A stretch of DNA of 64,000 nt from the NCBI GenBank assembly GCA_040377855.1, contig JBEINY010000001.1:6814-70813 (forward strand), read 5' to 3'. Below are positions 644 to 56,544 of this stretch, piece by piece. The stretch comes from Prochloraceae cyanobacterium. Lineage in GTDB: Bacteria > Cyanobacteriota > Cyanobacteriia > PCC-6307 > Cyanobiaceae. The first letter of the stretch is position 1; every line of letters starts with the position of its first letter. The position numbers were made by a program, and so were the translations under genes. The notes beneath the pieces were generated by a model, which had not been told where the DNA came from, searched no databases, and worked only from the letters and a program-made list of their open reading frames with translations.

Positions 644-1747
644 TTAAGGGCGGTCTTCACCCCCCGGCGCCGCCAGGCGCCAGTTCAGGATCTCCCCGGC
701 ATGGAAGGGCAGCAGCCTCAGGGGGGTCCCACTGCCATCATCCAAATCAAGCTTGGCGGGAATCAGCTGGGGCTCCCGCACCAGGGTGATCGTGCCCTGA
801 TTGAGCGGCAGGCCATAGAAACGGGGGCCATGCTCCGACGCGAAGCCCTCCAGCCGGTGAAGGGCCTGCTCCTCCTCAAACACCTGGGCGTAGCTCTCGA
901 TCGCCCAGGGGGCGTTGAAGATGCCGGCACAGCCACAGGCCGATTCCTTGGCGTGGCGGGGATGGGGAGCCGAATCAGTGCCAAGGAAAAAGCAGGGCCG
1001 ACCGGAGGTGGCCGCCCGTCGCAGCGCCAGCCGGTGCCGTTCCCGCTTCGCCACCGGCAGACAGTAGAAATCGGGCCGCAGACCACCGCTGAAGAGCGCG
1101 TTGCGGTTGATGTGAAGGTGATGGGGGGTGATCGTGGCAGCGACCTGGGCCCCGGCCCCCTCCACGAACGTCACCGCCTCCTCGGTGGTGATGTGCTCGA
1201 GCACCACCTTCAGGCCCGGATGGCGCGCCGTCAGCGGTGCCAGATGCCTTTCGATGAACACGGCCTCGCGATCGAAAATGTCGACCCAGGCCTCGGTGAC
1301 CTCCCCATGCACCAGCAGGGGCATGCCGATTGCCTCCAGGGTGTCGAACACGGCCTCGAGCAGACCAAGGTCACTGATACCGGCGGCGGCATTGGTGGTG
1401 GCATGGGCCGGATAGAGCTTGCAGGCGCTGAACACCCCCGAGCGGAACCCTGCCGCCAGGTCATCGGGATCGGTGCCGTCCGTGAGATAGGCCGTCATCA
1501 AGGGCTGGAAGTCGGTATCCGGCGGCAGGCAGGCCACGATCCGCTCCCGGTAGGCGCTCGCCGCCGCCGCCGTGGTCACCGGTGGCACCAGATTGGGCAT
1601 CACGATCGCCCGGCCAAAACGGCTGGCCGTGGCGGAGGCCACCGCCTGCAGCATGGCTCCATCGCGCAGGTGGACATGCCAGTCATCCGGGCGGCGCAGG
1701 GTCAGGCGCTGGGGGCTGGGCTCGAAATCGAGGGATGACGTCGGCAT
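644..1747 (-). CDS. pyrC: dihydroorotase (homodimeric class II type)
   Basis: 367 aa with an ATG start. The N-terminus RRPDDWHVHLRDG carries the metal-binding HxH motif, and the length and later motifs (VLEHITT, HGEV) are typical of PyrC. Confidence 0.93.
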   Translation of the reverse strand: MPTSSLDFEPSPQRLTLRRPDDWHVHLRDGAMLQAVASATASRFGRAIVMPNLVPPVTTAAAASAYRERIVACLPPDTDFQPLMTAYLTDGTDPDDLAAGFRSGVFSACKLYPAHATTNAAAGISDLGLLEAVFDTLEAIGMPLLVHGEVTEAWVDIFDREAVFIERHLAPLTARHPGLKVVLEHITTEEAVTFVEGAGAQVAATITPHHLHINRNALFSGGLRPDFYCLPVAKRERHRLALRRAATSGRPCFFLGTDSAPHPRHAKESACGCAGIFNAPWAIESYAQVFEEEQALHRLEGFASEHGPRFYGLPLNQGTITLVREPQLIPAKLDLDDGSGTPLRLLPFHAGEILNWRLAAPGGEDRP

Positions 1748-5506: not shown

Positions 5507-6733
5507 ATGGCTTCTCTTCCCTCAGCACAATCCCTGGGCCGGCGCCTGAAACGTGAACTGTTCGCCAGCCCGCTCGATGGCCTGATTTCGATCGGACTGA
5601 TCGGCTTCCTCCTGGCCGTGGCCACCAGCTTTGGCCACTGGGCCCTGGTGCAGGCCCGCTGGGAGGTGATCCATGCCAACAGCATCCTGTTGGCGATCGG
5701 GCGTTACCCGGTGTCCCAGCAATGGCGGCTCTGGCTGCTCACCAGCCTGCTGGCGGCGGCCACCGGCATCAGCTGGGGACTGCTGCGGGGCTTGCCAAGG
5801 CCCGATCGACCGGCCCGGCTCTGGCCCCGCAACGATCGCCTGGCCATCGGGCTGCTGGCAGGCCTGGCCCTGCTCAGCCCCCTGGCCCTGAAGCTCCCCC
5901 TGCTGATCCAGCTGCGCTGGTGGTTGATCGCCGGGCTGTTGGTGGGCCTGCGCTGGGTCTGCGGCCGCTGGGCCCGGATCCTGCCGGCAGGCTGGCGGCC
6001 CTGGATCGGCCTGGCCTGGCCCCTGATCTACCTGCTGGGGATGGTGCTGATCAGCGGTGGTTTCGGCCTGATCCAGGTGACCCCCTCCCAGTGGGGTGGC
6101 CTGCTGCTCACCCTGCTGGAGGCGAGTTTCGCGATTCTGCTCTGCTTCCCCCTGGGCATCCTGCTCGCCCTTGGACGCCGCAGTGAACTGCCGCTGCTGC
6201 GTTGGGGATCGGTGGTCTACATCGAGTTCATCCGCGGAGCGCCGCTGATCACCCTGCTCTTCCTCGGTCAGAACATTCTGGGTTTCATGCTGCCGGGTGG
6301 CCTGGCGCCGGAGCGGGTCTGGAGGGCCGCCTGGGTGCTCACCTTCTTCGCCGCGGCCTACGTGGCCGAAGCGGTGCGCTCGGGCCTGGCCGCCATGCCC
6401 CGCGGCCAGATGGAGGCGGCCCGTTCCCTCGGACTGCCGGTGCACCTGGCCCTGATCCATGTGGTGCTGCCCCAGGCGATGCGGGTGGCCCTGCCCGCCA
6501 CGGTGGGGCAATTCATCACCTTGCTCCAGGACACCACCCTGCTGTCGCTGATCGGCCTGATGGACCTGCTGCACATCGCCGGCACGGTGATGGCCAACCC
6601 GGACTATCTGGGCCGCAACGCCGAGGTCTATCTCACCCTGGCTGTGCTGTTCTGGTGCTGCTGCGCAGCCCTCGGGCTGGGCAGCCGGGCCCTCGAGCGT
6701 CGCCTTGATCCCAACCCCATTCCCAGCTCCTGA
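5507..6733 (+). CDS. aapM: amino-acid ABC transporter permease (AapM/BztC/NatH-like)
   Basis: 408 aa and multi-TM, with the loop [25 protein letters not shown]. It lies 5 nt after aapQ. Confidence 0.88.
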
Positions 6734-7521
6734 TGTCCTCCTCCCCGTCCTCCGCCGACTCGGTGCCTGCCGTGCCGGTCGATGAGCGCACCGTGATGAT
6801 CGAGGCCCGCGGGGTGCAGAAGTGGTACCCGAACGGGTTCCATGCCCTCCGCGGCGCCGATCTCACCGTTCGGCGCGGTGAGGTGGTGGTGATCATGGGC
6901 CCATCGGGTTCGGGCAAGAGCACCTTCATCCGCACCTTCAATGCCCTCGAGGACTTCCAGGAGGGCACCATCCAGGTGGGCGGCATCCCCCTCACCAACG
7001 ACCTCCGGCAGATTGATGCCATCCGCCGGGAGGTGGGCATGGTGTTCCAACAGTTCAACCTCTTCCCACACCTCTCGGTGCTGGCCAACCTCACCCTCGC
7101 CCCGGTGCTGGTGCGCGGTCGCCGTCGCCAGGAGGTGGAACACCAGGCCCGGCAGCTGCTGGAGCGGGTCGGCATCGCCGAGCAGGCCGACAAGTTTCCC
7201 GGCCAGCTGTCAGGGGGGCAGCAGCAGCGGGTGGCGATCGCCCGCTCCCTCTGCATGGAGCCGGAGATCCTGCTGTTCGATGAACCGACCAGCGCCCTGG
7301 ATCCGGAAATGGTGCGGGAGGTGCTGGAGGTGATGCAGACGCTGGCGGAAGGCGGCATGACCATGGTGGTCGTCACCCACGAGGTGCGCTTTGCCCAGCA
7401 GGTGGCCGACCGGGTGGTGTTGATGGCTGATGGCCATGTGGTGGAGGAGGCTCCACCGGAGACGTTCTTCAACCGGCCCTCCCATCCCCGCACCCGGCAA
7501 TTTCTCGATCAGATCCTCTGA
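6733..7521 (+). CDS. aapP: amino-acid ABC transporter ATP-binding protein
   Basis: Walker [10 protein letters not shown], signature [15 protein letters not shown], Walker [13 protein letters not shown]. Its ATG overlaps the aapM stop (6731-6735). Confidence 0.92.
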
Positions 7522-7593
7522 CAGCATCCCCGTCTCCCCACCGGTTGCACCTGTTCGAACCTTCCCCATGTAGGCCGATCAGCGATCCAAGGC

Positions 7594-8505
7594 TCAGGAG
7601 CCGGCGTGGTAACTGCTGCGGACGAGGGGACCACTGCGCACCTGCTCGAAGCCCAGCTCCCGGGCCCGGTCGGCCAGTTCGTCAAACTCCTCGGGCCGCC
7701 AGTAACGGGCCACGGGGATGTGGGCCAGGGAGGGCCGCAGATATTGGCCGAGGGTGATCCGGCGACAACCAACGGCCCGCAGATCTGAAAGGGCTGCCAG
7801 CACCTCGTCGCGGCTTTCGCCAAGCCCCAGCATCAGCCCCGATTTGGTGGGGATCGCGGGTGCCAGCGCCGCCGCCGCCGCCAGCAGGTCGAGGGAACGG
7901 CCGTAGGTGGCCCCGCGGCGCACCTCCCCCTGCAGGCGCTCCACCGTCTCCAGATTGTGGTTGAAGCAGACCGGATCAGCGGCCAGCACGGCCGCCAGCC
8001 GTTGCCGTTGCTGGGTACGGCCCACGAGGGGGTCCCGGCTCCCCCCCCAGAAATCGGGGGTGAGCACCTCGATGGCCACCGTGGGGGTGTGCCGCCGGAT
8101 CGCCGCCATGGTGGTGGTGAACAGGCTGGCGCCGTGGTCGGGCAGGTCATCGCGGGCGACCGCGGTGAGCACCACGTAGCGCAGGCCCAGGGTGGCCACC
8201 GCCAGGGCCACCCGCTCCGGCTCATCCGCATCCAACGCGGCCGGGGCCTGGCCCTTGTCCACCTGGCAGAAGGCGCAGCTGCGGGTGCAGATGGGGCCGC
8301 CCAACAGGAAGGTTGCGGTGCCGGCGGCGTAGCACTCGCCGCGGTTGGGGCAGCGGCCCTCCTCGCAGATGGTGTGCAGTCGCTGCTGCTTCACCAGGCT
8401 TTGAACCCGTTCGAGATCGGATGCCGTGCCGATCGAACGGCGCAACCAGGGGGGAAGGCGCTCCGCCGGGGGAATGGCGCTGTATCGGCTCTTCGTTGAG
8501 GACAT
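7594..8505 (-). CDS. lipA: lipoyl synthase
   Basis: Both cluster motifs are present: [12 protein letters not shown] and the radical-SAM CTRSCAFC. Length is 303 aa. Confidence 0.95.
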
Positions 8506-8526
8506 CCTGGAAACCTGACTGGCCCG

Positions 8527-9135
8527 CTAGGGATCGACCCGGCGGCGGCCCTCCAGGGCCCGGGCCAGGGTGACCTCATCGGCGTATTCCAGTTCACTGC
8601 CCACCGGGAGGCCATAGGCAATCCGGCTCACCTGGGTGAACGGGCGCAGCAACCGAGCGAGATAGAGGCTTGTGGTGTCTCCTTCGACACTAGGAGTGAG
8701 GGCCAGGATCACCTCGGTGATCGCCTCCCGGTCGACCCGGGCCACGAGGGGTTGGATCTGCAGCAGGTCGGGGCCAACCCCATCCATGGGCGAGATCAGG
8801 CCGCAGAGCACGTGATACGTGCCCTTGAACTCCCTGGTGCGCTCCATGGCCAGCAGATCGCGGGAATCAGCCACCACGCAGATCTCGCCGTTGTGGCGAT
8901 CGGGGTTGGCGCAGATCTCACAGATCGGCTCCGCCGAGAGGTGGAAGCATTCGCGGCATTGCCCCACCTGGCTGCGGGCGTTGAGCAGGGCATCGGCGAA
9001 GGCCTGGATCTGCTCGGGCGGCTGGCGCAGGAGATGCAGGGCCAGGCGCTGGGCCGTGCGGGGACCGATGCCTGGAAGACGCTCGAACTGGTCGATCAAC
9101 CGGGCCAGAGGTCGGGTGAAGCCGCTCAGGACCAT
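8527..9135 (-). CDS. recR: recombination protein RecR
   Basis: N-terminal HhH ([20 protein letters not shown]), C4 zinc finger ([16 protein letters not shown]) and Toprim region (ICVVADSRD). Confidence 0.95.
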
Positions 9136-9220
9136 GGGGCAAGTGAACGGAATCTAGGGGGGCTCCCGCCGGGAGGCGTCGGCCAGGGACAATGCGTTCA
9201 TCCGAGTGGCCGCCAGCCCC

Positions 9221-9802
9221 ATGCCTTTCCCCTCCCTCCGCGCCTGCGGCCAGCGTCTGCGCCAGGGCGGCCTCGGAGCCCTGCTCGTCCTGGTGCTGGC
9301 GATCACCCTGGCGGGCTGCAGTGCCGCCGCCGCCGGCCTCAACTCCTATGTCAGTCCGGATGGCCGCTACGTCTTTCTGTATCCCACCGGCTGGGTGCGG
9401 GCGGCGGTGAGTGGCGGACCGGAGTTGGTCTTCCACGACCTGATCAACAGCGACGAGACCCTGAGCCTGGTGATCACCGATGTGAACCCCGACCGGGATC
9501 TCTCGAGCCTGGGCAGCGCCGTGGCCGTGGGCGAAACCCTGCGCCGCACCGCCATCGCGCCTGAGGGCAGCGGCCGGGTGGCGGAGCTGATCGAAGCCCG
9601 GGAGCGCCAGGCTGGCAACCGCACCTTCTACGACCTGGAATACAGCGTCCACCTGGCCGACCGCGATCGCCATGAACTGGCCACGGTGGTGGTGGACCGG
9701 GGACGCCTCTACACCCTGGCCGCCAGCACGAACGAGGTGCGCTGGTCCCGGGTCAAGGATCTGTTCGGACGGGTGGTGACCTCGTTCACCTTCCAGATCT
9801 GA
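9221..9802 (+). CDS. psbP: PsbP-like protein (CyanoP), lipoprotein
   Basis: The track start 9206 is GTG, and I prefer ATG 9221. A lipobox (LAGCS) is followed by the PsbP-domain pattern YVSPDGRYVFLYPTGW...FHDL...LSLVITDV...YDLEY...LYTLAAS. Confidence 0.85.
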   Translation: MPFPSLRACGQRLRQGGLGALLVLVLAITLAGCSAAAAGLNSYVSPDGRYVFLYPTGWVRAAVSGGPELVFHDLINSDETLSLVITDVNPDRDLSSLGSAVAVGETLRRTAIAPEGSGRVAELIEARERQAGNRTFYDLEYSVHLADRDRHELATVVVDRGRLYTLAASTNEVRWSRVKDLFGRVVTSFTFQI

Positions 9803-9805
9803 TCG

Positions 9806-10882
9806 ATGCCCTCCGCCGGTGACGTTGTGGTGATCGGGGGAGGGCTGGCCGGATCCCTGGCGGCCCTGGCACTCGCGGAGACGGGCTGGCGGGTCAAGTT
9901 GCTGGTGAGCGACGACCCCGGCCCTGACGCCACCGCCCTCAGTTACGGAGGGGTGGCCTGGTGGGCCGGGCCCCCGGGGCCCCGGGGGGCCCTGATGCGC
10001 CAGGCCCCACGCCAGTGGAGGCAATGGCAACGGCGTCACGGCGATCTCGGCTGGCGGCGTTGCCGGCTCCAGCTCCATGGGGCCCCGACCTGGGAACGGT
10101 TCCGGCCCTGGAGGTTCTCCAGGGTGGATGGCCAGGTGCTCGCGCAACGGCTGCCCGCAGCGCTGCTGGCCATGGGTGTGGAGCGGCTGCCGATCGCCCC
10201 GCTGGGGCCCTTGCAGCTGGAGAACCCCCACACCGGGAGCGCCGACCGGGGCCTTGTGGTGGTGCTCCCCCGGGGTGAGAGGGTGCCCACGGATCGGGTG
10301 GTGCTGGCCGCCGGAGCGGGCTGCCGAACCCTCTGGCCGACGCTGACCCCGGTGCTGCGCTCCAGCTGGGCCGGGGTGCTGACGGCGAGCCAGCGGCCCC
10401 CCGGTCGGCGGGGGGATCAGGTGCGACTACCCCGCCACTGGCAGCGGCCGGCGCTGGAGCGTCGGGCTGCTTCCCTGACAACGGAGGAATGGATCGTGGA
10501 TCCCGGCCTGGCCCCCCGGGGGGCGGGGCTGCTCGCCGGTCAGATCAGCCTGGTGGCGCCAGGCCTGGCGACGATCCCGGGCCCCGACCCGGCCCTGATG
10601 GACAGACGCCTGCGGCAGGGGCTGGGGGCGTGGGATCCGGCCCTGGCCGGGCTTGAGGCCCCTTACCGCCAGACGGCGGTGGCCTTCAGCACCGACGGCC
10701 TCCCCCTGGTGGGCCCTCTGCCCGACCAGCCTCGCCTCTGGCTCTTCAGCGGGTTCAGCGGGGCCTTCAGCCAGGTGCCCGTCCTGGCCCCGATCCTGGC
10801 CAAGGCCCTGACCAGGTCCCTGCACGAACCATCCCCCTCAGGGCTGGCCCCCCTGGCAGTCCTCGGTGTGCTTCCCCGTTGA
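9806..10882 (+). CDS. FAD-dependent oxidoreductase (DAO/glycine-oxidase-like family)
   Basis: N-terminal dinucleotide fold DVVVIGGGLAGSLAALALAE. Length is 358 aa, and it starts 3 nt after the psbP stop. Confidence 0.75.
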   Translation: MPSAGDVVVIGGGLAGSLAALALAETGWRVKLLVSDDPGPDATALSYGGVAWWAGPPGPRGALMRQAPRQWRQWQRRHGDLGWRRCRLQLHGAPTWERFRPWRFSRVDGQVLAQRLPAALLAMGVERLPIAPLGPLQLENPHTGSADRGLVVVLPRGERVPTDRVVLAAGAGCRTLWPTLTPVLRSSWAGVLTASQRPPGRRGDQVRLPRHWQRPALERRAASLTTEEWIVDPGLAPRGAGLLAGQISLVAPGLATIPGPDPALMDRRLRQGLGAWDPALAGLEAPYRQTAVAFSTDGLPLVGPLPDQPRLWLFSGFSGAFSQVPVLAPILAKALTRSLHEPSPSGLAPLAVLGVLPR

Positions 10883-10956
10883 ACAGCGAGGGCCAGCAAC
10901 GGAATCCTCACCATCCACTGCAGAAAGCATCCCCACCCTCCGCCAAGCTGGCCGCC

Positions 10957-12306
10957 ATGGTTCCTTCCCCATCCGAGGCTCCAGGCCCCCAGGCCATGCC
11001 CGCCCCTGCCACCAAAGGCGCAGGCCCCCTGCGGCCATGGCACGCCCTCAGTGACCACGACCAGGTGGGGGTCTGCCTGGCAGCGGTGAGTGGTGCCCTG
11101 GTGCTCTGGGGTCTGTTCTGGCCCGTGCCCACGGAGGTGATCGGCCAGGGGGTGCTGCTCTCCGCCGACCGCGCCGGCCTGGTCAATGCCCGGTTCGGTG
11201 GCCAGGTGCGTCGCATGCTCGTGCGCACCGGGGAGCGGGTAAGCCGGGGCCAGGTGCTGATGGAGCTCGATCTGCCGGTGCAGGACAAGGAGCTGATCCA
11301 GCAACAAGCCAACCTGCTGCAGCTGGAACGGCAGAACCGGGAGCTGGATGAGCGCGACCGCCAACGGTTACGCACGGAACGGGCCACCCTCGACACCACC
11401 GTCGCCAAGCTGGCCGATGACCGACGTCGCTACCAGACCCTCCAGGCCACCTATCAGGCCAAACTGCGCAACCTTGAGTGGTTATCCCGACGCCAGGTGG
11501 TGGCGCCCCTGGCCCAGGAAGTGGTGGGTGCCGAGCAGGGCCTGACCAGCACCAGCGTCAGCCTTGACGAGGTGAAGATCAAGGAGAAAGCTGCCCTCAC
11601 GGCCTACCAGCAGGTCAAGCTCAACCTCGAGACCGAAGCCCTGCAGCGACGCTTCCGGATCTCCGACCTCCGACGTCAGATCGGAGTGACCGAGGCCCGC
11701 AACAGCTTCGAGGGGCGGATCCATGCCCAGCGGAGCGGCACGGTGCTTGATCTTCAGGTGATCGAGGGGCAGACGGTGGCCACCGGTCAGCGGCTGGGCA
11801 CAATCGGGGATCCCGACCTGGGCAGCGACCGCCGTCGCCCCCTGCAGGCCGTGGCCTACTTCCCACCGGGAGATGCCCGACGGCTGCCCCAGGGGTTGCC
11901 CCTGGAGGTGGTCCCCCTCTGGAACCAGCGCTCCCGGTTCGGAGGCATCATCGGCCGGGTACGGCGGGTGTCCACCTTGCCGGCGACCCCCGAAGACATC
12001 GCCACCAACACCGGCAACCCCCAGCTGGCCGAGGACCTGGTGCGCCAGGGGCCGGTGATGCGGGTCGACATCGACCTGCTGCGGGATGCCGGCACCAGCG
12101 ACGGCTACCGCTGGACGATTTCCTCCGGCAGCTCAGTCTTCCCCGTGCGGGAAGGGCTGACCATCACCGGTCACGCCTACGTGGAATGGCGCCCGCCGAT
12201 CAGCTATCTGCTGCCGGGCCTGCGGTCGCTCACCGGTGGGTACCGCTCTCCCAGGATCGACAGCCGCTGGAACGAACCGGCCCTGCGCCAGAGCCCACCC
12301 CCCTGA
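10957..12306 (+). CDS. HlyD-family membrane-fusion/secretion protein, resembling the NHLM-bacteriocin-system type
   Basis: The track start 10879 is TTG, and I prefer ATG 10957. One TM helix (VCLAAVSGALVLWGLFW), a lipoyl-like hairpin (GQVRRMLVRTGERVSRGQVLMELD), a long coiled coil, and a C-terminal tail (GYRWTISSGSS...GLTITGHAYVEWRPPISYLLP) as I remember for TIGR03794-type proteins. Confidence 0.8.
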   Translation: MVPSPSEAPGPQAMPAPATKGAGPLRPWHALSDHDQVGVCLAAVSGALVLWGLFWPVPTEVIGQGVLLSADRAGLVNARFGGQVRRMLVRTGERVSRGQVLMELDLPVQDKELIQQQANLLQLERQNRELDERDRQRLRTERATLDTTVAKLADDRRRYQTLQATYQAKLRNLEWLSRRQVVAPLAQEVVGAEQGLTSTSVSLDEVKIKEKAALTAYQQVKLNLETEALQRRFRISDLRRQIGVTEARNSFEGRIHAQRSGTVLDLQVIEGQTVATGQRLGTIGDPDLGSDRRRPLQAVAYFPPGDARRLPQGLPLEVVPLWNQRSRFGGIIGRVRRVSTLPATPEDIATNTGNPQLAEDLVRQGPVMRVDIDLLRDAGTSDGYRWTISSGSSVFPVREGLTITGHAYVEWRPPISYLLPGLRSLTGGYRSPRIDSRWNEPALRQSPPP

Positions 12307-51354: not shown

Positions 51355-52161
51355 TCAGAGCCCGGGGCTGCTCTGCATGATGCCGCCGTCGGCAAAGATC
51401 GAGGTGGCGGTGATGTAGCTGGCGGCATCACTGGCGAGGAACGCCACCACCGACGCCACCTCATCCGGCTGGGCCATGCGACCCATCGGGATGGCGGCAT
51501 TGAGCTTGGCCAGAAGCTCGGGGTTGTTCATCGTTGAATCATTGATCGGCGTGGCCACGGCACCCGGACCCACATTCACGATCGTCACCCCATGGGCGGC
51601 CAGCTCAACCCCGGCGGTACGGGTGAGCATGCGCACGCCACCTTTCGCCACGCAGTAAGGGGTGTTGTTGGGCATCGGCCAGTCTTCATGCACCGAGGAG
51701 ATGTTGATGATCCTGCCGCCACCGCCCTGGGCGATCATCTGCTTGGCGGCATACTGCGTCGCAAAAAAGACGCCCCTGAGATTGATATTGAGAACCTTGT
51801 CGTAGTCCTCAGGAGTGGTGTCGAGGATCGAGGTGCGGGTTTCGATGCCTGCATTGTTGACCATCACATCAAGACGCCCAAAACGATCGACCGCTGCATC
51901 AATCAGACGCTGAAGATCTTCGAGTTTGCCCACATCGGCCTGGAACCCGAAACTGCAACCGCCGAGTTCGCCGATTTCCTGCTCGATCGCCTCGGTGGCC
52001 TCGGGATGGGAGCGGTAGTCGATCACCACCTTGGCGCCCAGCCGGGCGATGCGCTCAACGATCGCCTTGCCGATGCCACTGTTTCCGCCGGTCACGATGA
52101 TCACCTTGTCCTGGAGCAAGGTGGCCAGGGTGGCGTTGGCGTAGGGATTGGTGCCAGTCAT
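51355..52161 (-). CDS. SDR-family glucose 1-dehydrogenase-like oxidoreductase
   Basis: TGGNSGIGKA cofactor motif, NNAG, the catalytic S...YCVAK, and the tail GRMAQPDEVASVVAFLASDAASYITATSIFADGG. The overall pattern is close to Bacillus-type Gdh. Confidence 0.85.
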   Translation of the reverse strand: MTGTNPYANATLATLLQDKVIIVTGGNSGIGKAIVERIARLGAKVVIDYRSHPEATEAIEQEIGELGGCSFGFQADVGKLEDLQRLIDAAVDRFGRLDVMVNNAGIETRTSILDTTPEDYDKVLNINLRGVFFATQYAAKQMIAQGGGGRIINISSVHEDWPMPNNTPYCVAKGGVRMLTRTAGVELAAHGVTIVNVGPGAVATPINDSTMNNPELLAKLNAAIPMGRMAQPDEVASVVAFLASDAASYITATSIFADGGIMQSSPGL

Positions 52162-52340: not shown

Positions 52341-52754
52341 ATGATGTCCGCGATACTTCCCCGCCACGCCCTTCACAGCGACCGCTGCTCAGCGCCTGTG
52401 GCTGGCTATAGCCAAGGATTCCAGGTGGGATCCATGGTGTTTGTCTCCGGGCAGATTCCCTTCGATCCGAACACCAACACCAAGGTCGGAGATGGAGACA
52501 TCGTGCTCGAAGCCCGCCAGGTGTTGCGCAATGTGATGGCAGTGCTGGAGGCCGCCGGCTGCAGCGCCCGCGAGGTGGCCAGTGCCGTGATCTATCTCAC
52601 GGACATCAACCAGCTGGAAACCGTTGACCACGTCTGGCGCGAATTCTTCACCGATGCCAGCGCCTTCCCCTCCAGGGCCGTGGTGGAAGTGGCCGCCCTC
52701 GTGGAGGGCATCCAGGTGGAGATCTCCGCGATCGCCATCAAGGATCCGGACTGA
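52341..52754 (+). CDS. ridA: RidA/YjgF/endoribonuclease L-PSP family protein
   Basis: APVAGYSQGFQVGSMVFVSGQIPFDP...EARQVLRNVMAVLEAAGCS...V.YLTD......V...W.EFF...FPSRAVVEVAAL..G..VEI. Confidence 0.9.
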   Translation: MMSAILPRHALHSDRCSAPVAGYSQGFQVGSMVFVSGQIPFDPNTNTKVGDGDIVLEARQVLRNVMAVLEAAGCSAREVASAVIYLTDINQLETVDHVWREFFTDASAFPSRAVVEVAALVEGIQVEISAIAIKDPD

Positions 52755-52789
52755 CCGACCTTCGCTGCCCCACCACCACCCATTCCCCC

Positions 52790-53251
52790 ATGGACACCGC
52801 TGCGCTGACACCGCCGAGCTCGCTCGAGTACTGGCATCTGTTCACCGATGCCGAGGGCATCAGCCGCCAGACCCTCTGCACCATGGCCCCGTATCACCTG
52901 GGGGTTCTCGGCCCCGGTGATGCCCCGCAGTGGAACCTGGATCTGTTCAAGGACGGCAACGCCTTCCTCACCCTCCTGCCGGTGGGCTGGCGCGCCGACT
53001 GGCATGAAAATCACATTCCCAAATGGATCTTCGTGCTCCAGGGCAGCTGGTCGGTGCAGAGCATGGATGGCCAGCTGCAGGTGTTCGGCCCCGGGGAGTT
53101 TTCCTTCGGTGGCGACCAGGACTGCATCACCACCGCCGATGGGGCCAAGGGCCACCTCTCGGCCCAGGTGGGGGACGAACCCTGCCTGCAGCTGGTGGTG
53201 CAACGCAACGACGAGGCCTGGCGCTCTGCACCGCCTGGCTTCTTCGCCTGA
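52790..53251 (+). CDS. cupin-like hypothetical protein
   Basis: 153 aa with a beta-rich pattern (WHENHIPKWIFVLQGSWSVQSMDGQLQVFGPGEFSFGGD...GHLS) consistent with a cupin barrel. The family is not certain. Confidence 0.6.
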   Translation: MDTAALTPPSSLEYWHLFTDAEGISRQTLCTMAPYHLGVLGPGDAPQWNLDLFKDGNAFLTLLPVGWRADWHENHIPKWIFVLQGSWSVQSMDGQLQVFGPGEFSFGGDQDCITTADGAKGHLSAQVGDEPCLQLVVQRNDEAWRSAPPGFFA

Positions 53252-53286
53252 ACCCCCATGAGCCCTGACCCTTCGCCGCCCTGCCT

Positions 53287-54210
53287 GTGGTGATTGCCAA
53301 TCCATCCGCCTGCACCGAGAGCTACGACCCTCGGTTTGAGCCGCTGGTTCTCTTCAATGCCGAGCTCGAGCTGCTGGCCGAAGGCTTTCGCTGGCTGGAG
53401 GGCCCGGTCTGGTTCGGCGACCACGACTGCCTGCTCTTCAACGACATCCCCTCCAACCGCACCTTGCGCTGGAGTGAGCGCCATGGCGTCACCACCTTCC
53501 GGGAGCCATCGGATTTCGCCAACGGCCAGACCCGTGACCGGCAGGGCCGCCTGATCAGCTGCCACCACCGCAGCCGCTGCCTGCGCCGCCGTGAACACGA
53601 CGGCAGTGACACCACCCTGGTGAGCCACGCCCAGGGCCACCGCCTCAATGCCCCCAACGATGTGGTGGTCAAGAGCGACGGCTCGATCTGGTTCAGCGAT
53701 CCGCTGTACGGCCTGTTGAACGACTACGAAGGGGGCCGCCAGAGCTCTGAGCAGGGTCCAGCTCTCTATCGCCTCAACCCCGGCAGCGGGGAGGTCACCA
53801 TGGTGGCCAATGATTTCGATGGTCCCAACGGGCTGGCCTTCTCCCCCGATGAGCGCCTGCTCTATGTGGCGGAGTCCGGGGCCGCCGGGGTGGCTGAACC
53901 CCACCAGTTTCTGCGGGTGTTTGAGGTCGGCGACGACGGCCGCTCCCTCAGTGGCGGTAGGCACTTTCACACCGTTCAGCCCGGCTGGGCCGATGGCTTC
54001 CGGGTCGATGAGCACGGCAACCTGTGGTGCGGAGCGGCCGATGGCGTCCATTGCATCGCCCCGGATGGCACCTTGATCGGCAAGGTGATCGTGCCGCAAC
54101 GGGTCTCGAACCTCTGCTTCGGCGATCGCTTCCATAGCCGCCTGTTTCTCTGCGCCTCCACCCGGCTCTACGCCCTGTTCACCAACACCCGCGGCGTTCA
54201 GCGACCCTGA
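53287..54210 (+). CDS. SMP-30/gluconolactonase/LRE-family lactonase
   Basis: LAEGFRWLEGPVWFGD...LLFNDIPSNR...ANGQTRDRQGRLISC...NAPNDVVVKSDGSIWFSDP...GPNGLAFSPDE..LYVAES...ADGFRVDEHGNLW. GTG start. Confidence 0.88.
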   Translation: MVIANPSACTESYDPRFEPLVLFNAELELLAEGFRWLEGPVWFGDHDCLLFNDIPSNRTLRWSERHGVTTFREPSDFANGQTRDRQGRLISCHHRSRCLRRREHDGSDTTLVSHAQGHRLNAPNDVVVKSDGSIWFSDPLYGLLNDYEGGRQSSEQGPALYRLNPGSGEVTMVANDFDGPNGLAFSPDERLLYVAESGAAGVAEPHQFLRVFEVGDDGRSLSGGRHFHTVQPGWADGFRVDEHGNLWCGAADGVHCIAPDGTLIGKVIVPQRVSNLCFGDRFHSRLFLCASTRLYALFTNTRGVQRP

Positions 54211-54255: not shown

Positions 54256-54513
54256 ATGGCCCGCGAGCAACTGGAAACCTTCCTCAAGGCCGTCAAAGCC
54301 GATCCGCAGCTACGGCAGAAGCTCGCCGACTGCCCGAATCTGAATGGGATTGCCGACCTCGGCGCCGGCCTCGGCTATTCCTTCAGCGGCGTCGATCTGG
54401 TGCGCCACCAGGCGGAGGCCACCCTGCGGCTCTCGGAGGAGGAGCTGGAGGCGGCCGCCGCAGCGGTGGAGCTCGAAGGTCACCTCTGGCTGGCCCGCAT
54501 CGTCTGGAGCTGA
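54256..54513 (+). CDS. Nif11-like leader-peptide-family protein (85 aa)
   Basis: MAREQLETFLKAVKADPQLRQKLADCPNLNGIADLGAGLGYSFSGVDL...LSEEELEAAAAA follows the Nif11 N-terminal leader pattern. The 15-aa tail VELEGHLWLARIVWS has no GG site and no Cys. Confidence 0.75.
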   Translation: MAREQLETFLKAVKADPQLRQKLADCPNLNGIADLGAGLGYSFSGVDLVRHQAEATLRLSEEELEAAAAAVELEGHLWLARIVWS

Positions 54514-54519
54514 CCTCCC

Positions 54520-55926
54520 ATGCGCCTTGATCCCTGCCTGGAGCTCGCCGACTGCCAGGCCATCGCCGATGCCGCGCTGAACGTGGCCAGGCGCCTTGGC
54601 GGCGGCGTCAGCCTGGCGGTGGTGGATGGTGGCGGCCAGCTGCTGCTGGCCCTGCGGCTGGATGGGGCCTCGCCGGTGAGCGCCGAAGCGGCCCTGGCCA
54701 AGGCCCGTCTGGCGGCCCTCAGTGGCAAGAGCAGCGCCAGCTTCGAGGACGCGATCAACGGCCCGAGGCCAGCCCTGGCCCAGCTGACGGCAGCGATCAG
54801 CCAACCGGCTGCCGCCATGGCCGGTGGTCTCCCCCTGGTCACGGCCGGCCGCTGCATCGGAGCGATCGGCATCTCCGGCCGCACGCCTACGGAGGATGGC
54901 GCCATTGCCGCCGCCGGCGTTGAGGCCTTTGGGGCCCTGATCCAAAACGGCCCGCGCCCAAGGATCCTGGGCTTCGGCTTCACCTGCCAGGACGCGAAGG
55001 CCAGCGCCAGCTTCTATCAGCAGCACCTCGGCTTTCGCCTGCTGGCGGAAGAGACCCTCGATCCCGGCGGCTATGGGGTCCTGCTCGGTCTGCCCCACGC
55101 CCGCCTGAGGCGCGTCCAACTGGCCCTCGGCCAGGAACATTTGGAGCTGCTGGAGGTGGTGGATCCCGGCCAGGGCCAGCGCGCGGGCCGGCCCCTGCCC
55201 ACCGATTCCCGCAGCTGCGATCTTTGGTTTCAGCACCTGTGCCTGGTGGTGTCCTCCATGGATGCCGCCGCCGCCGGGATCGAGGCATTGATTCAGGACG
55301 GCCAGCTCAGCCCGATTTCCCAGGCACCGCAGCGACTGCCGGACAGCAACCCATCGGCAGGCGGGATCGTGGCGTTCAAGTTCCGCGATCCCGACGGCCA
55401 TGCCCTGGAATTGCTTCAATTCCCCGAAGGCCGCGGTGAGCCTCGCTGGCACGCCCCGGCCGCGGGGGGCATCCCCCAGCTCGGCATTGACCACAGCGCC
55501 ATCAGCATCAGTGATCCGGCCCGCAGTGGCAGCTTCTATGGCGAACTCCTCGGCCTGAGGCTCGCCCCGCCCGGCCTGAACGTCGGCCCTGAGCAGGATC
55601 GCCTCGACGGGCTTGACGACACCAAGGTGAGCATCAATCCCTACCGCTGTGGGGTGGGTCCGGGGCTGGAGGGCCTGGCCTACCGGCCCCCGACCACGGG
55701 CCGGGCGATGCCGATCGATCACAGCAGTCAGGACCTCAGCCACTGGCGCACGCGGCTGGCGATCACCGATCTTGAGCGCACCATGGACCAGGTGGCCTCC
55801 TATGGCGGGCAGGTGGTTGGGGAAGCGGTGACCCTGGGGGCAGGGGAGGCCGCCTCCCTGGGATTCCGACGCGGGGTGACGGTGCTCGATCCTGACGGCC
55901 ACAGCCTGCAGCTGGTGGAAACCTGA
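54520..55926 (+). CDS. three-domain fusion protein: GlcG/DUF336 (heme-binding-like) plus two VOC (glyoxalase/extradiol-dioxygenase fold) modules
   Basis: The N-terminus (AIADAALNVARRLGGGVSLAVVDGGGQLLLALRLDGA...GGLPLV.AGRCIGAIGISG.T...D) is GlcG-like. Two VOC-like units follow, ending ...FKFRDPDGHALELLQFPEG and ...VTVLDPDGHSLQLVE. The gene starts 6 nt after the Nif11-like stop. Confidence 0.8.
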   Translation: MRLDPCLELADCQAIADAALNVARRLGGGVSLAVVDGGGQLLLALRLDGASPVSAEAALAKARLAALSGKSSASFEDAINGPRPALAQLTAAISQPAAAMAGGLPLVTAGRCIGAIGISGRTPTEDGAIAAAGVEAFGALIQNGPRPRILGFGFTCQDAKASASFYQQHLGFRLLAEETLDPGGYGVLLGLPHARLRRVQLALGQEHLELLEVVDPGQGQRAGRPLPTDSRSCDLWFQHLCLVVSSMDAAAAGIEALIQDGQLSPISQAPQRLPDSNPSAGGIVAFKFRDPDGHALELLQFPEGRGEPRWHAPAAGGIPQLGIDHSAISISDPARSGSFYGELLGLRLAPPGLNVGPEQDRLDGLDDTKVSINPYRCGVGPGLEGLAYRPPTTGRAMPIDHSSQDLSHWRTRLAITDLERTMDQVASYGGQVVGEAVTLGAGEAASLGFRRGVTVLDPDGHSLQLVET

Positions 55927-56046: not shown

Positions 56047-56544
56047 ATGACGATCACAATCGTTGAGCTGCTGGTGCCATCCGGGCCATCACCCTTGGCC
56101 CAGGGCAGCCTGCTGGGGTTGCGGGTGTTTCTTGGGATCTGCTTCATCCGCCACGGCTGGCCGAAACTGCGCAACCTCGACACCTGGGCCACGGCGATGA
56201 AAACGCCGAAATGGCTCTGCTTCCTTTCCGCCTTCTCGATGTGGGGCGCTGGCATCGCCCTGATTCCAGGCCTTCTCACCCCTCTGGCCGCCCTGGCGAT
56301 CCTGGTGTCGATGGCCTATGCCTGCGTGGTTGAGATCCTGGCCGGTTTCCCCTTCATCGCCCCTGACCCCTACCAGATTCCCAAAGGTGATTACGTCGGA
56401 CCGATGGGGATCGGGGAACCACCCAGCTGGGAGAAAGCGGCGATGTATGTGGTCATGTGCCTGGTGCTTGCCACCTGCGGCGGCGGGGCCTTCTCCGTTG
56501 ACACACTGCTGCTCAATGATCTGCTGAACTCCCTGCTGAGCTGA
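56047..56544 (+). CDS. DoxX-family membrane protein
   Basis: LLGLRVFLGICFIRHGWPKL...four TM helices...GGGAFSVDTLL is the DoxX pattern. Length is 165 aa. Confidence 0.8.
   Translation: MTITIVELLVPSGPSPLAQGSLLGLRVFLGICFIRHGWPKLRNLDTWATAMKTPKWLCFLSAFSMWGAGIALIPGLLTPLAALAILVSMAYACVVEILAGFPFIAPDPYQIPKGDYVGPMGIGEPPSWEKAAMYVVMCLVLATCGGGAFSVDTLLLNDLLNSLLS

What the first reader, a model, noticed from the sequence alone, without database searches (positions are those of the whole stretch)
54256..55926. Nif11-type leader peptide with an atypical tail (no GG, no Cys) positioned 6 nt upstream of a GlcG-VOC-VOC enzyme
Seen: the 85-aa ORF has the Nif11 leader pattern up to LSEEELEAAAAA. Prochlorosin-type precursors have LS(D/E)xxLEGVAGG at that position. 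Here it is followed by VELEGHLWLARIVWS, which is rich in Trp, His, Leu and Ile and has no Cys and a single terminal Ser. Its stop (54511-54513) lies 6 nt before the ATG of the three-domain GlcG/VOC/VOC gene.

Established: Nif11-like leaders guide RiPP precursors (lanthipeptides and others) to modifying enzymes and C39-peptidase exporters. The known partners are LanM, cyclodehydratases and radical SAM enzymes, not VOC proteins.

Inference: this may be a stand-alone Nif11-domain protein of unknown role. It may instead be a precursor whose aromatic core is modified by a dioxygenase-fold enzyme, which would be a new RiPP chemistry. An NHLM-type HlyD protein exists 42 kb upstream, but no peptidase-ABC transporter is in the window.
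Basis: partly seen in the sequence, partly recalled or inferred. Interest (0 to 1): 0.6.

Follow-up and report, generated by a model that had tools for sequence, protein, structure and literature searches.

The report
Small Nif11 protein paired with GlcG
The 85-residue gene is real and looks like an antibiotic-peptide precursor, but across picocyanobacteria it behaves as a conserved small protein inherited as a two-gene unit with the sensor-like GlcG (DUF336) protein next to it, so it is probably that protein's partner and not a substrate of the neighbouring VOC enzyme.

Summary
ORF 54256-54513 encodes an 85-aa protein that scores above cut-off for Pfam Nif11 and TIGR03798. It ends LSEEELEAAAAA-VELEGHLWLARIVWS, with no GG and no Cys in the tail. 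Its stop lies 6 nt before a GlcG/DUF336-VOC-VOC gene.

It fails the other defining features of Nif11-type RiPP precursors:
- It is single-copy.
- The tail is not hypervariable. G75-H-L-W-L79 and W84 are invariant in 65 orthologs despite saturated synonymous change (dN/dS 0.10 for residues 75-84, against 0.29 for the helical bundle).
- No protease or exporter is linked to it.

The real partner is GlcG, not VOC. In a 401-genome family sample, 66 of 68 genomes with the small gene have the GlcG ortholog, always adjacent, and 0 of 333 without it do. VOC-VOC is present in all 68 and in 59 further genomes that lack both. In two genomes of one genus the operon runs lactonase-VOC-VOC, with exactly the Nif11+GlcG pair missing. 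Rearrangements separate VOC from GlcG but never GlcG from Nif11.

Best reading (about 0.5): an unprocessed accessory protein whose disordered His/Trp tail docks on GlcG. A conserved-core RiPP or cofactor precursor remains possible (about 0.12).

The scan holds earlier notes only on this same window, none on other DNA.

The parts
54256..54513 (+). Gene for the 85-aa Nif11-domain small protein (stop included)
   Evidence: ORF. Pfam Nif11 52.9 bits. TIGR03798 59.2 bits. 194 homologs, nearly all 85 aa. dN/dS 0.24 overall at dS about 0.8.
54256..54426 (+). Residues 1-57: four-helix Nif11 bundle, with invariant C26 and the invariant H51-QAEATL57 at its end
   Evidence: AF2 gives helices 2-15, 17-24, 29-38 and 45-57 with pLDDT 85-95. 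The A1 profile matches the MppE Nif11 leader 9zn4 at E 3.8e-6. HQAEATL has dN/dS 0.002.
54430..54465 (+). Residues 59-70: L59-x4-L64 motif and the Ala run that occupies the Gly-Gly position (A69-A70)
   Evidence: L59 and L64 are kept in 98% of 65 orthologs. Position 70 is Gly in 95%; the window has Ala. The TIGR03798 alignment ends at residue 69 = model position 67 of 68. The L(X)4L motif is described in bioRxiv 10.64898/2026.10.04.756588.
54466..54510 (+). Residues 71-85: invariant hydrophobic His/Trp tail VELEGHLWLARIVWS
   Evidence: G75, H76, L77, W78, L79 and W84 are invariant in 65 orthologs; the degenerate codons (G, H, L) occur as 2-4 synonymous forms. I82 and V83 are kept in 94-98%. 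dN/dS is 0.095 for residues 75-84. pLDDT is below 50 in the monomer model. The motif was found in no other protein family among 1.84 billion representatives.
54520..54945 (+). GlcG/DUF336 (HbpS-like) domain, the conserved partner. It is fused here to VOC-VOC and is a separate gene in most species.
   Evidence: Pfam PF03928 93.4 bits. PDB sequence hits to EfgA, ORFY, NahX, HbpS and PduO-C. Fold TM 0.82-0.88 to the same proteins. Always 0-30 nt after the Nif11 stop. Phyletic match 66/68 against 0/333.
54955..55926 (+). Two VOC (glyoxalase/dioxygenase-fold) domains, the catalytic part. Orthologs also exist without Nif11 and GlcG.
   Evidence: Pfam Glyoxalase and Glyoxalase_6. Fold matches to GLOD4, maize glyoxalase I, PcpA and 3oaj at 13-17% identity. 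Invariant H239, E297, H325, E384, H408 and H461. Present in 127 of 401 family genomes, including 59 without Nif11.
52341..54210 (+). Upstream operon genes: RidA (52341-52754), cupin-like (52790-53251), SMP-30/gluconolactonase-like SGL (53287-54210)
   Evidence: Pfam and NCBIfam Rid family. SGL lies directly upstream of Nif11 in the large majority of loci; in some marine g8 genomes and L079 RidA sits between them. Intergenic gaps are 35, 35 and 45 nt.
56047..56544 (+). DoxX membrane protein, last gene of the + strand run
   Evidence: Pfam DoxX 46.9 bits. Conserved downstream of VOC-VOC.
51355..52161 (-). Divergent SDR (glucose-1-dehydrogenase-like)
   Evidence: Pfam adh_short_C2 217 bits. NCBIfam glucose 1-dehydrogenase subfamily 230.8 bits against cut-off 215. 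In marine genus g8 this gene sits between GlcG and VOC-VOC.

Best explanation
The 85-aa ORF encodes a full-length, unprocessed small protein. It is built like a Nif11 leader peptide: a four-helix bundle, then a flexible arm carrying HQAEATL and L-x4-L, then a 15-residue hydrophobic His/Trp tail. It has been fixed as the obligate partner of the DUF336/GlcG protein encoded immediately downstream.

Nif11 + GlcG form a two-gene accessory cassette. The cassette is present or absent as a unit between the lactonase (SGL) and the VOC-VOC metalloenzyme of a sugar-oxidation / reactive-carbonyl operon in freshwater, brackish and some marine picocyanobacteria.

Proposed mechanism, all inferred: the bundle and arm provide the kind of protein-protein recognition that Nif11 leaders use on RiPP enzymes. 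The tail, disordered on its own, docks into or over the ligand pocket or oligomer interface of GlcG. DUF336 pockets bind haem, cobalamin, iron or aldehydes. His76, and perhaps Cys26 and His51, could help ligate a cofactor or gate ligand access. This would tune what GlcG senses or delivers to the VOC-VOC enzyme, to which GlcG is covalently fused in roughly a quarter of species.

Shown: the gene is real and under protein-level selection; the tail and HQAEATL are its most constrained parts; there is strict co-occurrence and adjacency with GlcG; the VOC enzyme exists independently of the pair. Inferred: physical binding, tail docking, and a regulatory or cofactor role.
For: 1. Protein-level selection. 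In 65 orthologs dS is about 0.8 in every segment. dN/dS is 0.002 for HQAEATL, 0.095 for tail residues 75-84, and 0.29-0.30 for the bundle and linker. Conservation is therefore not due to a DNA or RNA element.
2. Not prochlorosin-like. There is one copy per genome. The tail is invariant, not hypervariable. The window has AA and orthologs AG where GG should be.
3. The tail has pLDDT below 50 while the bundle has 85-95, as expected for a segment that folds only on a partner.
4. Adjacency. GlcG starts 0-30 nt after the Nif11 stop, sometimes overlapping it, in nearly all of 73 species loci whose DNA reaches that far. The exceptions are L037 and L065, where VOC-VOC follows directly. This holds whether GlcG is fused to VOC-VOC or is a separate gene.
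5. Rearrangements keep the pair. In marine genus g8 the SDR gene lies between GlcG and VOC-VOC, and RidA may lie between SGL and Nif11, yet Nif11-GlcG stay 7-8 nt apart where the alignment reaches the GlcG start. In L061/L125 VOC-VOC is inverted and the pair is kept.
6. Phyletic pattern in one 401-genome family sample. Nif11 is in 68 genomes. The GlcG ortholog is in 66 of those and in 0 of the other 333. VOC-VOC is in all 68 plus 59 others.
7. G282 and G709 have cupin-SGL-VOC-VOC-DoxX with about 5 nt between SGL and VOC. Exactly the pair is missing.
8. Where GlcG is lost, Nif11 is broken in 2 of 4 independent cases (G528 in-frame TGA; G354/G647 N-terminal deletion), against 1 of 78 where GlcG is kept (Fisher p = 0.005).
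9. Specificity. 34 other Nif11-like loci have no GlcG nearby.
10. Precedents. Other conserved N11P-family small proteins of unknown function sit in non-RiPP contexts in Synechococcus: Unk9, Unk10 and the GEYH/N family. DUF336 proteins act as ligand sensors (EfgA, HbpS).
Against: - There is no direct evidence of binding.
- The pairing is seen only inside one family. Twelve DUF336 loci in other cyanobacteria have no Nif11 gene next to them. Co-inheritance of adjacent genes can come from linkage alone, and related genomes are not independent.
- Two genomes (L037; G546/L065) keep an intact 85-aa gene with no GlcG.
- The G354 and G647 remnants keep the tail ...GHLWKMxIQWT with neither the bundle nor GlcG. 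This hints that the tail could act on its own.
- The protein retains every leader-like feature: bundle, L-x4-L, small residues at the cleavage position, then a short disordered C-terminal peptide. A true precursor would look the same.
Confidence: 0.5

Rival explanations
1. Conserved-core RiPP or peptide-derived cofactor/signal. The Nif11 bundle and L-x4-L act as a leader. The peptide is cut near A69-G70, and the invariant 15-mer (His, two Trp, Lys/Arg) is oxidised or cross-linked by GlcG and/or the VOC-VOC metalloenzyme. The product would be a single conserved molecule, in the manner of PqqA or MftA.
For: - TIGR03798 score above cut-off.
- L59 and L64 conserved in 98%, and A-G at the cleavage position in 95% of orthologs.
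- The tail is disordered and is, with HQAEATL, one of the two most constrained segments.
- Truncated remnants keep the tail.
- A non-haem iron hydroxylase is now known as a Nif11-leader-dependent enzyme (MppG).
- The top fold match of the VOC part is GLOD4, for which a 2026 paper title reports protein nitration (paper not read).
- A C39 peptidase-ABC exporter exists in the genome.
Against: - VOC-VOC orthologs occur in 59 sampled genomes with no precursor, in the same operon position. The VOC enzyme is therefore not a dedicated peptide-modifying enzyme.
- GlcG/DUF336 has no known peptide-modifying activity.
- No RRE, peptidase, radical SAM, P450 or exporter is in the cluster.
- The genome's only C39 exporter has its own four short GG-leader peptides beside it.
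- The window's own copy has Ala-Ala at the putative site.
- The HQAEATL segment inside the putative leader is even more constrained than the core.
Confidence: 0.12
2. An independent small protein with its own role, for example a regulator or a binder of a metal or cofactor. It merely sits next to GlcG by descent, and the co-occurrence reflects linkage of neighbouring genes, not a functional pair.
For: - Adjacent genes are gained and lost together by single events.
- All occurrences lie in one family.
- Two genomes keep the gene without GlcG.
- Other single-copy Nif11 proteins in this genome sit in unrelated contexts.
Against: - Adjacency with near-zero spacing survives several independent rearrangements of the surrounding genes, and survives GlcG/VOC fusion and fission.
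- The pair is absent precisely as a unit in G282 and G709.
- Nif11 decays more often where GlcG is lost.
Confidence: 0.15
3. Metallochaperone or haem-handling variant of the best explanation. Together with GlcG, the small protein loads or repairs the metal centre of the VOC-VOC enzyme using C26, H51 and H76. This would parallel accessory proteins of extradiol dioxygenase operons.
For: - Invariant C26, H51 and H76.
- DUF336 members bind haem or iron (HbpS, PduO-C).
- A DUF336 protein, NahX, carries the name of the nah naphthalene-degradation genes.
- GlcG is fused to VOC-VOC in part of the species.
Against: No metal- or haem-binding motif was tested. P27 of the C-P dipeptide is only 82% conserved. 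The VOC enzyme works without the cassette in 59 genomes.
Confidence: 0.1

Closest known systems
Nif11-derived RiPP precursors (N11P, TIGR03798; prochlorosin ProcA/SyncA type; Haft et al. 2010, PMC2887384)
   Same: The N-terminal 69 residues match the leader model above cut-off. The acidic L-S-x-E-E-L-E-A segment is present, and a short C-terminal peptide follows.
   Different: No Gly-Gly. The tail is invariant, not hypervariable, and lacks Cys/Ser/Thr. One copy per genome. No LanM, cyclodehydratase or exporter linkage. The partner is a DUF336 protein.
MppE/MppG (Moorena producens; Nif11 leader recognised as a folded domain by an alpha-KG/Fe hydroxylase; bioRxiv 10.64898/2026.10.04.756588; PDB 9zn4)
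   Same: Tetrahelical bundle followed by a flexible region with L(X)4L. The profile matches 9zn4 at E 3.8e-6. The idea that the bundle mediates protein-protein contact with an enzyme is shared.
   Different: MppG carries an RRE domain and acts on a macrocyclised core. Here no RRE is present, the neighbour is DUF336 (plus VOC), and there is no evidence of modification.
Conserved N11P-family small proteins of unknown function in picocyanobacteria (Unk9, Unk8/7 and Unk10 of the phycobilisome rod/CA4 regions, PMC8995045 and PMC3877281; the GEYH/N family, PMC10783134)
   Same: Single-copy Nif11-domain proteins with conserved C-terminal parts, embedded in conserved non-RiPP gene neighbourhoods. This genome has a GEYN-type protein and a Nif11-cupin protein too.
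   Different: Different tail (GHLWL..IVW), different context (sugar-oxidation/VOC operon), and a specific two-gene coupling to DUF336 that I did not find described.
Conserved-core RiPP cofactor precursors (PqqA, MftA)
   Same: A small gene with a strongly conserved C-terminal peptide containing aromatic residues, placed first in line before enzymes.
   Different: Those systems have a radical SAM enzyme, an RRE protein and a peptidase. None is present here, and the candidate enzyme (VOC-VOC) also occurs without the peptide.
DUF336 ligand sensors and accessory proteins (EfgA formaldehyde sensor, HbpS, PduO C-terminal domain, GlcG, NahX)
   Same: The partner domain has this fold (TM 0.82-0.88) and the GG.P...GA.GVSG motif. 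These proteins are non-catalytic ligand binders encoded in aldehyde-producing or aromatic-cleavage pathways.
   Different: None of them is known to need a small Nif11-type partner protein.

Membership tests
N11P / TIGR03798 Nif11-like leader peptide RiPP precursors | N-terminal region homologous to the Nif11 leader, above the curated cut-off | tested here: met
   59.2 bits against cut-off 32.3; residues 1-69 align to model positions 1-67 of 68.
N11P / TIGR03798 Nif11-like leader peptide RiPP precursors | Classic Gly-Gly (GG/GA) cleavage motif at the end of the leader | tested here: not met
   The window has A69-A70. 95% of 65 orthologs have A-G and none has G-G.
N11P / TIGR03798 Nif11-like leader peptide RiPP precursors | Family-wide similarity ends at the motif and is followed by a hypervariable core rich in Cys/Ser/Thr/Gly | tested here: not met
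   The tail is one of the two most conserved parts (dN/dS 0.095; six invariant residues) and has no Cys or Thr.
N11P / TIGR03798 Nif11-like leader peptide RiPP precursors | Paralogous expansion of precursors in a genome | tested here: not met
   One match per genome in all 68 positive genomes. The other five Nif11 hits of this genome are different families without GG motifs or Cys-rich cores.
N11P / TIGR03798 Nif11-like leader peptide RiPP precursors | Linkage or co-occurrence with LanM/cyclodehydratase and a C39-peptidase ABC exporter with HlyD | tested here: inconclusive
   None is in the cluster. LanM was not found, but the genome is 87% complete and the control search rang nowhere. One C39-ABC + HlyD lies on another contig with its own four GG-leader peptides. 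The NHLM-type HlyD is 42 kb away.
N11P / TIGR03798 Nif11-like leader peptide RiPP precursors | Leader removal and modification of the core in vivo | not testable with these tools
   This needs mass spectrometry.
Pfam Nif11 domain (PF07862) | Match above the gathering score; four-helix bundle fold | tested here: met
   52.9 bits against 23.8. The AF2 model has four helices at pLDDT 85-95. The profile hits 9zn4 at E 3.8e-6. The Foldseek match to 9zn4 ranks first but is not significant (E 4, TM 0.43-0.46).
Enzyme-recognised Nif11 leaders of the MppE type | L(X)4L motif in a flexible region after the bundle | tested here: met
   L59-SEEE-L64; both Leu are 98% conserved. The helix at 61-69 has pLDDT 74-80.
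Enzyme-recognised Nif11 leaders of the MppE type | Partner enzyme with a RiPP recognition element (RRE/PqqD-like) | tested here: not met
   No RRE/PqqD domain is found by Pfam in any of the eight neighbouring proteins.
Conserved-core RiPP cofactor precursors (PqqA/MftA type) | Conserved core peptide together with a dedicated radical SAM enzyme, RRE protein and peptidase in the cluster | tested here: not met
   The core is conserved, but none of these enzymes is in the cluster. The VOC enzyme also occurs without the peptide gene.
DUF336 / GlcG / HbpS-like (partner protein) | Pfam PF03928 match and DUF336 fold | tested here: met
   93.4 bits. TM 0.82-0.88 to NahX, EfgA, PduO-C, HbpS and ORFY.
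Two-domain VOC metalloenzymes (glyoxalase I / extradiol or hydroquinone dioxygenase types) | Paired beta-alpha-beta-beta-beta modules with His/Glu metal ligands; an assignable subfamily | tested here: inconclusive
   The fold is met (GLOD4, maize GlxI, PcpA, 3oaj at 13-17% identity). H239, E297, H325, E384, H408 and H461 are invariant. No NCBIfam equivalog is reached, so substrate and reaction are not assignable.

The most novel reading that the evidence does not exclude
The invariant 15-residue His/Trp tail is the business end of a new kind of conserved-core ribosomal peptide. The Nif11 bundle presents it to a DUF336 protein, with or without the fused VOC metalloenzyme. There it is oxidised, cross-linked or loaded with a cofactor, and it acts as a peptide-derived cofactor or signal of the sugar-oxidation/alternative-oxidase gene region. 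This would be the first RiPP-like system to use a DUF336 or VOC enzyme.
Probability: 0.12. Interest if true: 0.8.

Novelty: new variant of a known kind. Interest (0 to 1): 0.42.

Why it matters
- Annotation. Public annotation calls this ortholog group a [quoted passage not shown] (names). The evidence here suggests that label is probably wrong for this group. A TIGR03798 score above cut-off does not suffice to call a RiPP precursor in picocyanobacteria.
- Two families of unknown function. Both the non-RiPP Nif11 proteins and DUF336/GlcG are widespread families whose functions are largely unknown. A strictly co-inherited, translationally coupled pair with an invariant disordered docking tail gives a concrete and cheap experiment for both: co-expression, pull-down, spectroscopy and intact-mass MS.
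- Evolution. If the pair binds as proposed, it would show a leader-peptide architecture used as a stable protein-protein adaptor. That bears on how Nif11 leaders evolved between proteins and RiPP precursors (Haft et al. 2010).

Tried and rejected
- Promoter/terminator scan and Rfam search of 50.5-57 kb: nothing informative.
- Rosetta-stone link between the cluster's cupin and the genome's Nif11-cupin protein: only a weak local match (22.7 bits, E 0.002 for the pair). Not used as evidence.
- Foldseek of the 85-aa model: 9zn4 ranks first but is not significant.
- Tail motif in other protein families: a profile of the C-terminal half against 1.84 billion representatives found only this family, fragments of it, two Nif11::GlcG deletion chimeras and low-complexity repeat proteins.
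- Nif11-DUF336 adjacency outside the family: none at 34 other Nif11 loci, and none at 12 DUF336 loci of other cyanobacteria.
- Programmed read-through of the TGA: the two ORFs are in frame in the window, but spacing and frame differ among orthologs. Rejected.
- The 530-aa antisense ORF: no Pfam match. Rejected as a gene.
- The DoxX hit to the HvfX RiPP-maturation family: 31.6 bits against cut-off 80, over 27 residues only. Not used.
- Link to the genome's C39 exporter: that exporter has its own canonical GG peptides.
Full report
**1. What is there**

- The + strand ORF 54256-54513 (ATG to TGA) encodes 85 aa.
- It matches Pfam Nif11 (52.9 bits, cut-off 23.8).
- It also matches the RiPP-precursor model TIGR03798 (59.2 bits, cut-off 32.3).
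- The TIGR03798 alignment stops at residue 69 = model position 67 of 68. The model's Gly-Gly therefore corresponds to A69-A70.
- The remaining 15 residues are VELEGHLWLARIVWS.
- Six nucleotides after the stop, a 468-aa gene begins. It consists of a DUF336/GlcG (HbpS-like) domain followed by two VOC domains.
- The gene sits in a tightly spaced + strand run: RidA, cupin-like, SMP-30/gluconolactonase-like (SGL), Nif11, GlcG-VOC-VOC, DoxX. A divergent glucose-1-dehydrogenase-like SDR lies upstream and convergent GMC and GH63-like genes lie downstream.
- The long antisense ORF has no family match.

**2. The gene is real, and its tail is not a variable core**

- A search of 5.8 billion protein clusters returned 194 relatives. 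Nearly all are exactly 85 aa, 67-86% identical over the full length, and come from Cyanobium, Vulcanococcus and freshwater Synechococcus.
- 73 species loci were fetched.
- In 65 full-length orthologs, synonymous divergence is the same in all segments (dS about 0.8). Non-synonymous change is almost absent in H51-QAEATL57 (dN/dS 0.002) and in tail residues 75-84 (0.095). The helical bundle and the linker show 0.29-0.30.
- G75, H76, L77, W78, L79 and W84 are invariant. G75, H76, L77 and L79 are each encoded by two to four different codons (Trp has only one).
- Selection therefore acts on the peptide, not on an overlapping nucleic-acid signal.
- This is the opposite of prochlorosin-type precursors, where similarity ends at Gly-Gly and the core is hypervariable (Haft et al. 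2010, PMC2887384).
- Position 70 is Gly in 95% of orthologs, so the family consensus is AAAAG-V. The window's Ala is a rare exception.
- L59 and L64, the L(X)4L motif of Nif11 leaders (bioRxiv 10.64898/2026.10.04.756588), are 98% conserved.

**3. Structure**

- With the ortholog alignment, AlphaFold2 gives four helices (2-15, 17-24, 29-38, 45-57) at pLDDT 85-95, a fifth helix at 61-69 at about 75-80, and a tail (73-85) below 50.
- The family profile hits the NMR structure of the MppE Nif11 leader (9zn4) at E 3.8e-6. The Foldseek comparison ranks 9zn4 first but without significance.
- An invariant segment that is not packed on its own domain is best explained as a site that binds, or is acted on by, something else.

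**4. Which neighbour matters**

- In the loci whose DNA reaches past the small gene, a GlcG-domain coding region starts 0-30 nt after the Nif11 stop, sometimes overlapping it. The exceptions are L037 and L065, where VOC-VOC follows directly.
- GlcG is fused to VOC-VOC, as in the window, in roughly a quarter of species. It is a separate gene of about 150 aa in the rest (open-frame lengths; protein lengths).
- In marine genus g8 the SDR gene lies between GlcG and VOC-VOC, and RidA may lie between SGL and Nif11. Nif11 and GlcG nevertheless remain 7-8 nt apart where the alignment reaches the GlcG start.
- In L061/L125 the VOC-VOC gene is inverted and the pair is intact.

The same 401-genome sample of the family gave these counts:

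| Feature | Genomes |
|---|---|
| Nif11 ortholog | 68 |
| GlcG ortholog among the 68 Nif11-positive genomes | 66, always adjacent |
| GlcG ortholog among the 333 Nif11-negative genomes | 0 |
| VOC-VOC ortholog | 127 (all 68 Nif11-positive plus 59 others) |

- In G282 and G709, from a genus in which many species carry the pair, the operon reads cupin-SGL-VOC-VOC-DoxX with about 5 nt between SGL and VOC-VOC. Exactly the two genes are missing.
- The VOC enzyme therefore does not depend on the small protein. This argues strongly against it being a dedicated peptide-modifying enzyme.
- Nif11 + GlcG behave as a two-gene accessory cassette.

**5. Decay pattern**

- GlcG is missing next to Nif11 in four independent cases.
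  - In two, the small gene is intact (L037; G546/L065, where the L(X)4L is also broken).
  - In two, it is damaged. G528 has an in-frame TGA. G354 and G647 have lost the bundle and keep only a 36-40-codon remnant ending ...GHLWKMxIQWT.
- Where GlcG is kept, 1 of 78 loci has a damaged small gene (L060). Fisher p = 0.005.
- Two database proteins (P0253, P0257) are deletion chimeras that join the Nif11 C-terminal part to the GlcG C-terminal part.
- The numbers are small and related genomes are not independent. The direction still fits a functional pair.

**6. Specificity and range**

- The tail motif occurs in no other protein family among 1.84 billion representatives.
- A phylum-wide sample of 401 cyanobacterial genomes gave a full-length match only in the window's own genome.
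- Within the family, the gene was found in 11 of 64 genera sampled, including 12 of 46 genomes of marine genus g8.
- 34 other Nif11-like loci have no GlcG or VOC nearby.
- 12 DUF336 loci of other cyanobacteria have no Nif11 gene nearby.
- The pairing is thus a lineage-specific invention. That limits the independent evidence for it.

**7. RiPP machinery in this genome**

- LanM was not found. The genome is 87% complete and the control search did not ring, so this is weak evidence.
- The single C39-peptidase ABC exporter, with an HlyD partner, lies on another contig. Directly upstream are four short peptides with canonical ...GG leaders, so it has its own substrates.
- The other five Nif11-domain proteins of the genome also lack GG motifs and Cys-rich cores. 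They include a GEYN-type protein and a Nif11-cupin fusion.
- Conserved N11P-family proteins of unknown function in non-RiPP contexts are already on record for marine Synechococcus: Unk9, Unk8/7 and Unk10 (PMC8995045, PMC3877281) and the GEYH/N family (PMC10783134).

**8. The partner and the enzyme**

- The 468-aa model is confident (mean pLDDT 89.5).
- Its N-terminal domain superposes on NahX, EfgA, PduO-C, HbpS and ORFY (TM 0.82-0.88).
  - These are non-catalytic binders or sensors of haem, iron, cobalamin or formaldehyde.
  - They are often encoded in pathways that make aldehydes (PMC8153426).
- The VOC-VOC part resembles two-domain glyoxalase-I-like proteins and hydroquinone dioxygenases (GLOD4, maize GlxI, PcpA, 3oaj) at 13-17% identity. 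It keeps invariant His/Glu candidates for metal binding.
- No equivalog model is reached, so the reaction is not assignable.
- Together with RidA, the lactonase, the glucose-dehydrogenase-like SDR and the adjacent GMC/GH63/alternative-oxidase genes, a role in handling reactive products of sugar oxidation is plausible. That reading comes from earlier notes e1-3880942 and e1-3880944, taken as context and not tested here beyond family assignments.

**9. Most likely mechanism**

I commit, at about 0.5, to the following.
- The 85-aa product is an intact small protein and the dedicated partner of GlcG.
- Its bundle and arm supply protein-protein recognition of the kind shown for MppE-MppG.
- Its disordered, invariant His/Trp tail docks into or over the DUF336 ligand pocket or oligomer interface.
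- In doing so it tunes what GlcG binds or passes to the VOC-VOC enzyme.

Shown:
- The gene is real and under selection.
- The tail and HQAEATL are the constrained parts.
- There is strict adjacency and co-occurrence with GlcG.
- The VOC enzyme is independent of the pair.

Inferred:
- Physical binding.
- Tail docking.
- A regulatory or cofactor role.

Rivals:
- A conserved-core RiPP or cofactor precursor (0.12).
- An independent small protein linked to GlcG only by position (0.15).
- A metallochaperone or haem-handling variant of the best explanation (0.10).

**10. Novelty and verdict**

- No paper in the library mentions Nif11 together with DUF336 or GlcG.
- The finding is a new variant of a known kind: a conserved, non-RiPP-like Nif11-family small protein, here with a defined partner.
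- The scan's earlier notes concern only this same window.
- Interest is moderate at 0.42. It is a clean, testable handle on two families of unknown function and a caution for automated RiPP annotation, but it shows no new mechanism yet.

Noticed in passing
L111 (G000 contig C25, about 6354-11423); peptides at L111 3620-3868, 3934-4110, 4370-4570, 4607-4789 (minus strand): The genome's only C39-peptidase ABC exporter (730 aa) lies with an HlyD gene on one side. On the other side, directly upstream, are four short ORFs with canonical double-glycine leaders (...ETLSGG, ...EALSGG, ...ETLQGG, ...EAIKGG). This looks like a bacteriocin-like cluster unrelated to the Nif11 gene.
   Followed up: partly
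L002-L006 (G000 contigs C32, C131, C61, C29, C79): Five further Nif11-domain ORFs occur in the same genome, none with a GG motif or a Cys-rich core. One ends ...DIPGEYN (the GEYH/N family of PMC10783134). One is a 187-aa Nif11-cupin fusion.
   Followed up: partly
window 54520-55926 compared with L007-L079: GlcG and VOC-VOC are one fused gene in some species, including the window, and two genes in most. This is a fusion/fission polymorphism within one family. In four loci (L008, L020, L070, L073) no VOC-VOC match follows GlcG; in L070 it lies on the opposite strand about 5 kb upstream.
   Followed up: partly
L137 (G647) and L138/L126 (G354), about 1495-1650 minus strand: Two marine genomes keep only a 36-40-codon remnant (...HQ.SA.L...AAG.EL.GHLWKM.IQWT) between SGL and the SDR gene. 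The Nif11 bundle and GlcG are both deleted. Similar short ORFs (P0243, P0247) form their own clusters in metagenomes.
   Followed up: partly
P0253 (128 aa) and P0257 (151 aa), from the representative library: These are deletion chimeras in which the Nif11 C-terminal part runs into the C-terminal half of GlcG. They are probably decaying copies of the pair.
   Followed up: no
window 56047-56544: The C-terminal 27 residues of the DoxX protein give a sub-threshold hit (31.6 bits, cut-off 80) to the HvfX family, annotated as a Cu-binding RiPP maturation protein. This is probably general DoxX similarity.
   Followed up: no
L140 (G522) and L142 (G623): In several genomes of genus g10 the VOC-VOC gene lies about 1.1 kb from the SDR gene, and no RidA, cupin, SGL, Nif11 or GlcG matched anywhere in the fetched 13 kb. 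The left half of the operon is thus also dispensable as a block.
   Followed up: no
window 54511-54522: In the window the Nif11 stop (TGA), two codons (cct ccc) and the GlcG ATG are in one reading frame. Spacing and frame differ in orthologs, so this looks accidental.
   Followed up: yes
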